Source: Escherichia coli | GTDB lineage: Bacteria > Pseudomonadota > Gammaproteobacteria > Enterobacterales > Enterobacteriaceae | NCBI RefSeq assembly: GCF_016026235.1 | Contig: NZ_CP065613.1 | Length of the DNA stretch: 64,000 nucleotides | Reading direction: 5' to 3' (one strand) | Part shown: in pieces, positions 3,001-6,000 of the stretch | How positions within the stretch are numbered: the first letter of the stretch is position 1 | Layout of the letters: each line of letters starts with the position of its first letter | Position numbers: made by a program

Positions 3001-6000
3001 AATGAAACACGCCAGTTCGCCCGGATGTTGGGACTTGAACCGAAGAACACGGCGGTGCGGAGTCCGGAGAGTAACGGAATAGCAGAGAGCTTCGTGAAAA
3101 CGATAAAGCGTGACTACATCAGTATCATGCCCAAACCAGACGGGTTAACGGCAGCAAAGAACCTTGCAGAGGCGTTCGAGCATTATAACGAATGGCATCC
3201 GCATAGTGCGCTGGGTTATCGCTCGCCACGGGAATATCTGCGGCAGCGGGCTTGTAATGGGTTAAGTGATAACAGATGTCTGGAAATATAGGGGCAAATC
3301 CAGCAATCGCATGCAGGGTCTTTGAACTGCGTTGTTCATAACGGGCAATCTCACTGAAACTCATGCCCTGCATCAGAATCTTAAGCACGCTCAACTCCCG
3401 TGCAGTCAGGAGCCAGAAATCGCTCATATCGCCGGGCAAAGGACGTAGTAACCAGCGGATAATTTGATTCTGATAACGACTCGCTGTCAGCATGGTGCCG
3501 ATGCGTGGGAAGCCGTTATACAGACTTGCAGCAGGAGCATTATCGAACCAGTCGGAGTCACCGGTCAGGCAGACCTGCCATTGCCCGGCATCACTCCGCA
3601 AGCGGACAAGACAAGCCAGAAGAACTAACTCCCCCGAAGGAAGCGAAGGGATATCAGCCAACAGATAGCCACAGGAGGTTTTTAAAACGAATTCAACCTC
3701 TGTAGTGACGTTGCTGTACACCCGCACGATATACCTGTCCGTTGGGATGAGAGACTCCAGTGCCAGCCTGGTGAACTGACAGGCACTGATAATAACCAGA
3801 GGCTTCTTCATTCAGACTCGTCCACGCCATTGCTACAAAACCTGACATTTTGAATCAGAAGGTACTGTTTTAACGAGGCTTTTTTTTCCACACCCCTTTA
3901 AATCGAGCAGCATTACTGGCTGTGTATCTGACAGTATGCTGGATATTTCGATGACCCAGATAATCCTGGAGTAGTCGGGTATCGACACCATTGTCAGCCA
4001 GAGCAAAACCACAGGCATGACGTAACATATGAGGATGTGCTTTTACAGCTAATCCTGCACGTTTTCCAGCCTCACGAATGATAGAAAAAAATGTTGTCTG
4101 CTGATAGGGCGGCGTTTCCGGGAGAGAAAAAGCCAGTCTCCTTCAACTCCGTTTTCAATTAACTTCCTCTGCTTAAGCCACGACTTGATCAAATTATATT
4201 CATCAGGAAGAAGAGGATGTGTCGTCGAGAAACCATTTTTAATACGCCGAATATTAAGTTGTTTTCCTGATGCATCAATATCGGATAAACGTAAATCAAG
4301 AAGTTCACTGGCCCTAAAACCGTGAATGAAAGCCATCATAATTAGACAGCGATTTCTTTCAGGAAAGGACATGCTCTGGGCTGCATCCATCAGCCTGTAG
4401 ACTTCATCCTGTGTGAGATATTTTCTCGTCATACGCCACCGTGTACAGTTGTAAAAAAAAGAGGCACACCCAGATAAGTATGCCTGCCATCAGAACGTTA
4501 TCGATGTAATCTCATTATTTCATTAATAAGATTTTTTGAATAGTAGTTCTACGCAACAGATTAAATATGAACTATTTATTGTGCAGCTTTTCTACAAATC
4601 ATTTTTAATGCGTGTTTTTATCTACATTGATGTGAAAAAATAAATATAAAAGCTATGAGCGACAGGTCGTGTGGGATGTGTGTTACGTCTAATGTTTTAG
4701 TTGTTTTTATTAGTTTGAGATATTTGACATTATTTCTTGCGAGAACGCTTTATTGTGTATCTAATTGATTTTTCTTTTGTTTTTGGTTGGTGAAATTATA
4801 AGGTAGAAGGTGAGATTAGTTTAATATCAATGATATGAATTTATAAATACATATTATTGCAAGGTGTTCTTTAATTTTCTGGTCGTGAGTAAACCATTGT
4901 TAATGAACTCTGCTAATAAATTAAAAATGTTCTTTTGAATAGCTTTTGTTTTTTTGTAAACCTCAGTTTGTTTATTTTGCATTCGTTTGCTGGAGAGTAT
5001 TTCAACAATTTTTATTTTTCGCATAAACTTATTAACAACTTTTTATTATCAATTGGAAATCAATGTAAACTAAAATGTTAGCGAAGCGATAATCTTGTGC
5101 TAAAAAATATTTAAGCATGATGATTAATTAAAGAAGAGTAAAAATAAATCACTGCTAATAAATTATACGAATCGTGTTTAAAGCTCCACGTTGTTTTGGT
5201 CTGACTTATTTTTGTCCTCGTTTCAAGAACCCTTTTCGTATATGCTAACCGTGAGCGGGAGTGAACAAGTCACCATAGCCAGGAACACTAGCGGCGTAAT
5301 TCTTAAGCTGAGTGGCATTTCACCTGCGGTTTATCAGTGCATTCATAGCACCTTCATCAGCCAGATTGAACGAGTCCGCTTAGAATTTGCTGGCGAGGTT
5401 GTCACTATGAAGCATGAGAGTTACCTCAGTGTTTATATAAGGATTCAGCCCCCCTCTCTGGAACGGTAACTCTCAATCTGATCGGTTCCTGCGTTAGTTC
5501 ACATCACGACTCATTTTTTCGCTCTCACCGGCATCCCATTTGCCACAAAATATCCCGCCGTGCTCCTTGGCAGCGCTTCCTGTCCACGAATCATGTCCGC
5601 TATTTTCTCGCCAATCATAATTGTCGTGGCGTTCAAATTGCCGGTGATAATCTGCGGCATAATTGACGCATCCACCACGCGTAGGCCTTCCAGCCCATGC
5701 ACGCGGCCTTCGCCGTCAACCACGGACATCTCGTCGTAGCCCATTTTGCAGGTACCGCACGGATGGAAGGCGGTTTCGGCGTGATTACGCACGAACTCAT
5801 CGAGCTGCTCATCCGTCTGACATTCCGTGCCGGGGCTGATTTCGCGGCCACGATACTGATCCAGCGCCGGTTGATGCATGATCTCGCGGGTGATGCGAAT
5901 TGCGTCGCGGAACTCCTGCCAGTCCTGCTCGTGCGACATGTAGTTAAACAGAATCGCCGGATGCTGGTGCGGGTCGCGGGATTTAATCCGCACATGCCCA

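What the first reader, a model, noticed from the sequence alone, without database searches (positions are those of the whole stretch)
3870..4432. FimB/FimE-family recombinase is one adenine short of an intact reading frame, at an A7 homopolymer
The catalytic C-terminal half (HPHMLRH…RYTA, containing the recombinase His/Arg/Tyr residues) is out of frame with the N-terminal half. The frames switch exactly at the A7 run at 4085-4091: A8 would give a single 187-aa FimB-like protein. A homopolymer at the exact break point is the signature of slipped-strand phase variation, but it is equally consistent with a recent inactivating mutation or a homopolymer sequencing error.
Basis: seen in the sequence. 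Interest (0 to 1): 0.6.

Follow-up and report, generated by a model that had tools for sequence, protein, structure and literature searches.

The report
Frameshifted ipbA (fimX) invertase pseudogene
This is the known E. coli DNA invertase gene ipbA (also called fimX or hbiF), inactivated by loss of one base from an 8-base A/T run; the lesion is stably inherited and sits in a locus that has also lost its DNA switch and its target regulator, so it is an ordinary decaying pseudogene, not a new on/off switch.

Summary
Window 3870-4432 (- strand) is a FimB/FimE-family tyrosine invertase split into a 127-aa and a 52-aa ORF at the A7 run 4085-4091, and one extra A restores a 187-aa protein. The gene is ipbA (fimX, hbiF), the invertase of the hyxS promoter switch that controls hyxR.

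Among 1,892 complete E. coli records carrying this segment, 1,466 have A8 (intact), 326 have A7 and 1 has A9. A7 is not a sequencing error. Three independent datasets of the window's own lineage carry it at 99.9-100% identity.

A7 does not behave like a contingency tract:
- It is fixed in about 311 O157:H7/O55:H7 records and in several other multi-isolate lineages.
- Sporadic A7 (15 records) is no commoner than -1 alleles at a second 8-base run in the same gene (10 records).

In the window, the 271-bp hyxS element is also precisely deleted and hyxR is split by IS2, so the whole module is dead. The best reading is a replication-slippage frameshift fixed as a pseudogene. Slipped-strand phase variation is not supported, though rare reversion cannot be excluded without reads. 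RefSeq already annotates this allele as "frameshifted".

The parts
3870..4432 (-). ipbA (fimX, hbiF) tyrosine-type DNA invertase gene, frameshifted pseudogene
   Evidence: RefSeq annotation of the 99.9%-identical locus in FDAARGOS_943 reads 'ipbA ... frameshifted'. The repaired protein passes NCBIfam NF007370. It aligns with XerA/XerD over the catalytic domain.
4085..4091 (-). A7 run (T7 on the coding strand, codons F115-F116-S117), the frameshift site; intact alleles have A8
   Evidence: Population counts are A8 1,466, A7 326 and A9 1.
4049..4432 (-). ORF1, 127 aa: the N-terminal 116 residues of IpbA, which carry only catalytic Arg40, plus an 11-residue out-of-frame tail
3870..4028 (-). ORF2, 52 aa, starting at Met136: carries Arg138, His161 and Tyr170 but lacks His135 and the N-terminal half
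3880..3887 (-). Second 8-base homopolymer in the same gene (coding-strand A8, Lys183-Lys185 of the ...WKKKPR C-terminus), used as an internal control; full length in the window
3842..3866 (.). Single residual recombination site, CTGACATTT-TGAATCA-GAAGGTACT. This is the junction left by precise deletion of the 271-bp invertible promoter element hyxS.
   Evidence: Alignment with intact loci, junction comparison, and a natural inverted allele that confirms the site boundaries.
3303..3811 (-). hyxR (LuxR-family regulator), 5' fragment, cut off by IS2
1972..3302 (+). IS2 (1,331 bp) inserted in hyxR with a 5-bp target duplication
   Evidence: L003 4504-4508 is matched on both sides of the insertion; IS2 transposase annotation.
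1681..1971 (-). hyxR 3' fragment
766..1527 (-). hyxA, the next gene of the same island; an intact ORF here

Best explanation
The gene is ipbA/fimX/hbiF. In intact strains its product inverts the adjacent promoter element hyxS, which controls hyxR, and it can also flip fimS. In the window's lineage, one T.A pair was lost from the T8 run that encodes Phe115-Phe116-Ser117. This is most likely ordinary replication slippage, since indel rates in E. coli rise exponentially with run length. The frameshift separates catalytic Arg40 from His135/Arg138/His161/Tyr170, so neither fragment can be an active recombinase. The allele has been inherited vertically as a pseudogene. The rest of the module has decayed as well: hyxS is precisely excised and hyxR is split by IS2. 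Nothing is left locally for the enzyme to act on. Shown here: the gene's identity, the lesion, its inheritance, the population spectrum and the co-occurring lesions. Inferred: slippage as the mutational mechanism, loss of activity, and the absence of meaningful switching.
For: Identity and function:
- RefSeq annotation of homologous loci, and synteny ykgH-hyxB-hyxA-hyxR-(hyxS)-ipbA-betA.
- NCBIfam NF007370, 253 bits against a cut-off of 221.
- Literature: only FimX inverts hyxS, and FimX also acts on fimS and ipuS (PMC6083910, PMC6458436, PMC8777976).

The lesion is real:
- FDAARGOS_943 is 99.9% identical over window 1213-9500, with the same IS2 site, the same hyxS deletion and A7.
- A draft contig of GCA_002466675.1 and a contig from SRR17652784 are 100% identical to window 3227-5034 and 3274-4854, including A7.
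- The control T8 run 3880-3887 in the same gene is full length in the window.

The lesion is stable:
- 326 records have an exact A7. Only 15 of these are on the T4063 background, so about 311 are on the C4063 haplotype of O157:H7/O55:H7.
- None of the 60 listed records, out of 75 with C4063+A8, is labelled O157:H7 or O55:H7. They are O145:H28, O169:H41 and others.
- O145:H28 RM13516 has the same ipbA haplotype as O157:H7 but with A8.
- Other A7 lineages contain several unrelated isolates: 94-3024/JL05/EC6622/PK13, and A25/DCE7.

There is no excess variability:
- A -1 allele at the control T8 run occurs in 10 records, against 15 sporadic A7.
- EcN_Sk is -1 at both runs, which looks like an assembly artefact.
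- Only one A9 was found.

The module is decayed: hyxS is deleted and hyxR is interrupted by IS2.

Run-length dependence of indels in E. coli: PMC8510543.
Against: A7 has arisen on at least six haplotype backgrounds. The tract is therefore a genuine mutational hot spot, and reversion to A8 is physically possible. With a sporadic rate of about 1%, finding no revertant among about 311 O157/O55 records is only weak evidence against rare reversion. Fifteen of the 75 C4063+A8 records were not listed. No read-level data could be examined, so sub-population heterogeneity in this strain is untested. Loss of enzyme activity is inferred from catalytic-residue positions and was not measured.
Confidence: 0.85

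Rival explanations
1. Slipped-strand phase variation. The T8/T7 run is a contingency tract that reversibly turns the invertase ON (T8) and OFF (T7), placing the inversion switches under a second, higher-level stochastic switch.
For: The frame toggles exactly at the homopolymer. A7 arose independently on at least six haplotype backgrounds. The intact gene carries the only two homopolymers of 8 or more bases that lie in coding sequence in 64 kb.
Against: No length heterogeneity was seen inside any clone examined. This covers about 311 O157:H7/O55:H7 records, four datasets of the window's lineage, and the groups of four and of two isolates. The sporadic A7 frequency (15 of about 1,500) matches the -1 frequency at a control 8-base run whose shift is nearly neutral (10 records). 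Only one A9 exists. No revertant was identified. In the window the enzyme's local substrate and target gene are destroyed, so a switch here would have nothing local to control. From general knowledge, known contingency tracts are usually longer or G/C-rich, and A/T runs of 7-8 in mismatch-repair-proficient E. coli mutate far too slowly.
Confidence: 0.06
2. Sequencing or assembly error: the genome really has A8 and the assembler under-called the homopolymer.
For: Such errors do occur. EcN_Sk is -1 at both 8-base runs of ipbA, while other Nissle 1917 assemblies have A8 and T8.
Against: A7 is present in three independent datasets of the same lineage, made by different projects. The control T8 run in the same gene is at its consensus length in the window; the upstream A run 4453-4460 has no fixed length to compare with. 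The allele travels with two other lineage-specific lesions.
Confidence: 0.02
3. Leaky rescue. The A7 allele creates U_UUU_UUU, a formally perfect -1 slippery heptamer. A -1 ribosomal frameshift, or RNA polymerase stuttering on the run, would read His-Phe-Phe-Ser-Ile and give a small amount of full-length IpbA.
For: Read directly from the sequence: a -1 slip on CAU UUU UUU CUA restores the native frame.
Against: There is no stimulatory structure at the right distance. The best downstream fold starts 19 nt after the run, with z = -1.63. A8 is the intact and majority state, so the arrangement is not designed. From general knowledge, runs of 7 give very little transcriptional slippage in E. coli. 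Any product would lack hyxS to act on in this genome.
Confidence: 0.05

Closest known systems
IpbA / FimX / HbiF, the accessory Fim-type tyrosine invertase of E. coli PAI-X (UTI89, CFT073, RS218)
   Same: Same gene at the same chromosomal position, between hyxR and betA. The repaired protein is 186/187 identical to WP_001295805.1.
   Different: It is frameshifted (A7 instead of A8), its cognate hyxS element is deleted, and hyxR is interrupted by IS2.
The ipbA pseudogene of E. coli O157:H7 and O55:H7 (annotated 'invertase, pseudogene' in Sakai and 'frameshifted' by PGAP)
   Same: The identical lesion, A7 at the same tract, gives the same two-ORF structure.
   Different: It is an independent event on a different haplotype (C4063 rather than T4063). 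A8 relatives of the O157 haplotype exist in O145:H28. O157:H7 keeps hyxS, in the reference orientation.
FimB/FimE with fimS, and IpuA/IpuB with ipuS
   Same: The same family of small tyrosine invertases encoded next to a promoter-bearing invertible element (PMC6083910).
   Different: These have different target sites, and no homopolymer frameshift is involved in their regulation.
Homopolymer contingency loci of Haemophilus, Neisseria, Campylobacter and Bordetella
   Same: A coding-region mononucleotide run whose length sets the reading frame.
   Different: Here there is no within-clone length variation and no excess over a control run. It resembles them in form only.

Membership tests
IpbA/FimX/HbiF tyrosine-type DNA invertase (FimB/FimE family) | Sequence match to the curated family model above its cut-off | tested here: met
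   The repaired 187-aa protein scores 253.3 bits against NF007370 (cut-off 221). It is in the same 90% cluster as named IpbA proteins.
IpbA/FimX/HbiF tyrosine-type DNA invertase (FimB/FimE family) | Catalytic Arg, His-x-x-Arg, His and Tyr residues of tyrosine recombinases | tested here: met
   R40, H135/R138, H161 and Y170 align with the corresponding motifs of XerA (5hxy) and the XerC-like chain 4a8e. They are present only in the conceptual A8 translation and are split between the two ORFs in the real sequence.
IpbA/FimX/HbiF tyrosine-type DNA invertase (FimB/FimE family) | Position next to hyxR in the hyxB-hyxA-hyxR-ipbA island beside betA | tested here: met
IpbA/FimX/HbiF tyrosine-type DNA invertase (FimB/FimE family) | Intact reading frame, as required for a functional member | tested here: not met
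   A7 frameshift. It is a pseudogene member, not a functional one.
IpbA/FimX/HbiF tyrosine-type DNA invertase (FimB/FimE family) | Adjacent invertible element hyxS bounded by inverted repeats | tested here: not met
   The 271-bp element is absent and a single site remains at 3842-3866.
Slipped-strand (homopolymer) phase-variable gene | A coding-region repeat whose length change toggles the frame | tested here: met
   A7 is out of frame and A8 is in frame.
Slipped-strand (homopolymer) phase-variable gene | Tract-length heterogeneity among close relatives or within clones | tested here: not met
   All four datasets of the window's lineage have A7. About 311 O157:H7/O55:H7 records have A7, and no labelled O157:H7 appears among the 60 of 75 same-haplotype A8 records listed. 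The multi-isolate A7 groups are uniform.
Slipped-strand (homopolymer) phase-variable gene | Variability above that of comparable non-switch homopolymers | tested here: not met
   15 sporadic A7 records against 10 T7 records at the control run 3880-3887. One A9.
Slipped-strand (homopolymer) phase-variable gene | Mixed tract lengths within one culture (reads or colonies) | not testable with these tools
   No read data are available.
Programmed -1 frameshift / transcriptional-slippage gene | A slippery run plus a stimulatory element, with the shifted arrangement conserved as the normal state | tested here: not met
   U7 is present, but there is no significant structure at 5-9 nt. The unshifted A8 form is the majority and the intact state.

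The most novel reading that the evidence does not exclude
The T8 run in ipbA is a low-frequency but biologically used slipped-strand switch. It turns the FimX invertase on and off, giving a two-tier stochastic hierarchy: homopolymer slippage gates DNA inversion at hyxS, fimS and ipuS. The many independent A7 lineages would then be its OFF states caught in genomes.
Probability: 0.05. Interest if true: 0.55.

Novelty: already known. Interest (0 to 1): 0.15.

Why it matters
It matters little as a discovery. The gene, its function and this frameshift allele are already in the databases: PGAP flags it 'frameshifted' in hundreds of genomes, and Sakai lists it as a pseudogene. The practical points are these:
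- Strains with A7 lack FimX, so they cannot invert hyxS and they lose one of the FimB-independent routes to switching type 1 fimbriae on.
- The tract is a recurrent site of gene loss, with at least six independent events. A7 should therefore not be read as shared ancestry.
- The population test against an internal control run is a usable way to tell a hot-spot pseudogene from a contingency locus when no reads are available.

Tried and rejected
- Shigella origin of the window: rejected. lacI-lacZYA-sized ORFs are intact at 49969-56239, and the nearest genome is labelled E. coli.
- A7 shared by descent with O157:H7: rejected. The window carries T4063 and O157 carries C4063, and the C4063 haplotype exists with A8 in O145:H28 and others.
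- WP_203265086.1 as an intact ancestor of the window allele: rejected. This intact protein has the window's L84S change, but its DNA haplotype is MS20658-like at the other six substitution sites within the gene, so the shared SNP is homoplasy.
- A -1 frameshift stimulator downstream of the run: none found.
- The primary papers on FimX, HbiF and hyxS (PMC3809820, PMC3675907, PMC1360361, PMC1489709) are not held in the library, so the details of hyxS come from secondary accounts.
- Counting hyxS deletions directly with a junction query was judged unreliable, because split matches are joined into one place. The number was bounded by subtraction instead: 1,892 - 1,784 - 16.

Full report
**1.
On the - strand of window 3870-4432 there are two ORFs.
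- ORF 4049-4432 is 127 aa. It consists of 116 residues of a tyrosine recombinase followed by 11 out-of-frame residues.
- ORF 3870-4028 is 52 aa. It starts at the Met of HPHMLRH and ends ...VRYTASNAARFKGVWKKKPR.

The frames change at the A7 run 4085-4091 (T7 on the coding strand, codons His114-Phe115-Phe116-Ser117). Inserting one A gives a 187-aa protein. Only two homopolymers of 8 or more bases exist in the whole 64-kb window, and both lie in or beside this gene.

**2. What the gene is.**
Megablast of 3800-4500 against 5,426 complete E. coli genomes finds the locus in 1,898 of them. [quoted passage not shown] The gene order in intact strains is ykgH-hyxB-hyxA-hyxR-[intergenic 329 bp]-ipbA-betA-betB-betI-betT, and the window has the same order.

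The repaired protein has these properties:
- It scores 253 bits against NCBIfam NF007370 (cut-off 221).
- It differs from the common intact IpbA (WP_001295805.1) only by L84S.
- It aligns with XerA/XerD across the catalytic domain, which places Arg40, His135, Arg138, His161 and Tyr170.

The frameshift at codons 115-117 separates Arg40 from the other four residues, so neither fragment can be active. That last step is inference.

According to the literature held here, FimX is the only recombinase that inverts hyxS, the promoter element between fimX and hyxR. It also acts on fimS and ipuS (PMC6083910, PMC6458436, PMC8777976).

**3. The A7 allele is real and inherited.**
- FDAARGOS_943 matches window 1213-9500 at 99.9% in a single alignment. 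It has the same IS2 insertion, the same intergenic deletion and A7.
- A short draft contig of GCA_002466675.1 is 100% identical to window 3227-5034, including A7.
- A contig assembled from run SRR17652784 is 100% identical to window 3274-4854, including A7.
- The control T8 run in the same gene (3880-3887) is at its consensus length in the window, so nothing suggests systematic homopolymer under-calling.

Sequencing error is therefore excluded.

**4. Population spectrum of the tract.**
I used short queries in which any single mismatch or gap drops the hit below the 99% identity band. Among 1,892 records carrying the segment:

| Tract | Records with exact match |
|---|---|
| A8 | 1,466 |
| A7 | 326 |
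| A9 | 1 |

The remaining records, about 100, have flanking SNPs.

A neighbouring SNP (window 4063, T or C) splits the A7 class. Only 15 records are T4063+A7, so about 311 are C4063+A7. In the listings these are O157:H7 and O55:H7 strains, including EDL933, Sakai, CB9615 and RM12579.

The C4063 haplotype with A8 occurs in 75 records (O145:H28, O169:H41, O157:H16 and others). None of the 60 that were listed is labelled O157:H7 or O55:H7. O145:H28 RM13516 has the same ipbA haplotype as O157:H7 except that it has A8. The O157/O55 frameshift therefore arose once on that haplotype and has been kept since before those two serotypes separated.

**5. Independent origins.**
I fetched 12 of the 15 T4063+A7 records (the other three are FDAARGOS_943, already fetched, and second assemblies of LS4 and 94-3024), plus reference loci, and compared SNP haplotypes across ipbA. 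A7 sits on at least six backgrounds:
- the window's lineage;
- O157:H7/O55:H7;
- LS4 and FCI29;
- 94-3024 (O104:H21), JL05, EC6622 and PK13;
- A25 and DCE7;
- B2-type strains H22 and GABEEC132 (with EcN_Sk), and EC13 one SNP away.

The window's A7 (T4063) is thus independent of the O157 event. The tract is a recurrent site of loss. Several of these groups contain epidemiologically unrelated isolates that all carry A7, which is the pattern of vertical inheritance and not of rapid switching.

**6. Control.**
ipbA contains a second 8-base run, window 3880-3887, which encodes the Lys-Lys-Lys near the C-terminus. A shift there changes only the last few residues. The -1 allele (T7) at this run, searched on the majority haplotype, occurs in 10 records. 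That is about the same as the 15 sporadic A7 records.

One assembly, EcN_Sk, is -1 at both runs, whereas other Nissle 1917 assemblies are full length at both. That points to an assembly artefact.

The focal tract is therefore no more variable than an ordinary 8-base A/T run in the same genomes. In E. coli, indel rates rise exponentially with run length (PMC8510543), and that is enough to explain recurrent loss.

**7. The surrounding module is dead in this genome.**
Alignment with intact loci shows that the window lacks 271 bp between hyxR and ipbA, leaving 58 bp between the two genes. This missing segment is hyxS.

In intact strains the element is bounded by two sites:
- a hyxR-proximal site, CTGACATTT-TGATTCA-AAATGTCAG;
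- an ipbA-proximal site, CTGACATTT-TGAATCA-GAAGGTACT.

The window keeps a single site, at 3842-3866. A natural allele in the opposite orientation (Eco_24-2013) has exactly the junctions predicted from these sites.

In addition, hyxR is split by an IS2 at 1972-3302 with a 5-bp target duplication. FDAARGOS_943 has a further IS600 cut in hyxA. O157:H7 F7349, which also lacks FimX, has an internal stop in hyxR, whereas O55:H7 CB9615 does not. This fits progressive decay after loss of the invertase.

All sampled A7 strains that still have hyxS carry it in the reference (UTI89-like) orientation.

**8. Verdict on mechanism.**
The best explanation is a -1 replication-slippage mutation in a T8 run, fixed as a pseudogene within a module that has lost its function (confidence 0.85).

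Slipped-strand phase variation fails three of the four tests that could be run (toggling of the frame is met). There is no within-clone heterogeneity, no excess over the control run, and no identified revertant. Read-level heterogeneity could not be tested.

The absence of revertants is only weak evidence. At a sporadic rate of about 1%, one would expect only a few among roughly 311 genomes.

A -1 ribosomal or transcriptional slip on U_UUU_UUU would formally restore the frame. However, no stimulatory structure is present, and the A8 form is the intact majority state.

**9. Novelty.**
None for the finding itself. The gene is well characterised, and the frameshifted allele is already annotated as such in RefSeq. 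Interest is low.

The most interesting thing seen lies outside the finding: the recurrent, precise loss of hyxS with two alternative junction bases. It is recorded under 'noticed in passing'.

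Noticed in passing
window 3842-3866; compare L003 5043-5338 and L021-L024: The invertible promoter element hyxS (271 bp) is precisely deleted in the window and, independently, in other lineages where ipbA (A8) and hyxR are intact: SCU-485, and the group HCM-28C-2/2009C-3133/GPEC1185. Two junction types exist. The window's lineage has ...CTGACATTTTGAATCAGAAGG and the others have ...CTGACATTTTGATTCAGAAGG. They differ only at the central base of the 7-bp core, TGA(T/A)TCA. The hyxR-proximal site has perfectly palindromic 9-bp arms, so it can pair with the other site in direct as well as inverted alignment. 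The two junctions are what a tyrosine-recombinase excision with a one-base heteroduplex would leave, although slippage between the 15/16-bp direct repeats is an alternative. Of 1,892 records, 1,784 have the reference orientation, 16 are inverted, and about 92 are deleted or otherwise rearranged.
   Followed up: partly
window 1972-3302: IS2 is inserted in hyxR with a 5-bp target duplication. The ORF listed at 3125-3811 (228 aa) is an artefactual fusion of the hyxR N-terminal 169 codons with the end of IS2. The same insertion is present in FDAARGOS_943.
   Followed up: yes
window 4453-4460: An A run 21-28 bases upstream of the ipbA start codon varies between strains: A8 in the window, A7 in FDAARGOS_943, A6 followed by GAGAGG in O157:H7, and A8 followed by GAGAGG in MS20658. 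Any effect on ipbA expression is unknown.
   Followed up: no
protein P0005 (cluster of ipbA): A 161-aa truncated IpbA that ends ...DYLGH, before the Tyr170 nucleophile, is on record from at least 818 contigs, including complete chromosomes. It appears to be a second common way of losing this invertase, distinct from the A7 frameshift. A CGA-to-TGA change at codon 162 would produce it, but the DNA was not checked.
   Followed up: no
L015 (E. coli EcN_Sk, NZ_CP172017.1): This Nissle 1917 assembly is one base short at both 8-base runs of ipbA, while other Nissle assemblies are full length. This is probably homopolymer under-calling, and it is a caution against using single assemblies as evidence of tract variation.
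   Followed up: partly
L025 (Eco_24-2013) and similar records: Six of the 16 records with hyxS in the inverted orientation have ipbA annotated only as a 'DNA recombinase' fragment; in Eco_24-2013, the one inspected, it is a partial recombinase CDS next to an IS66-family element (ISEc8). These strains appear locked in the non-reference orientation.
   Followed up: partly
L020 (O145:H28 RM13516): ipbA is annotated as intact but shorter here (522 bp CDS). The alignment shows that the 5' end of the gene, equivalent to window 4422-4452, is missing, so this A8 allele may use a different start or be impaired.
   Followed up: no
window 11937-15986: A 1,349-aa ORF with an autotransporter-like, repeat-rich passenger lies just downstream of betT. 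It is not part of the hyx island and was not analysed.
   Followed up: no
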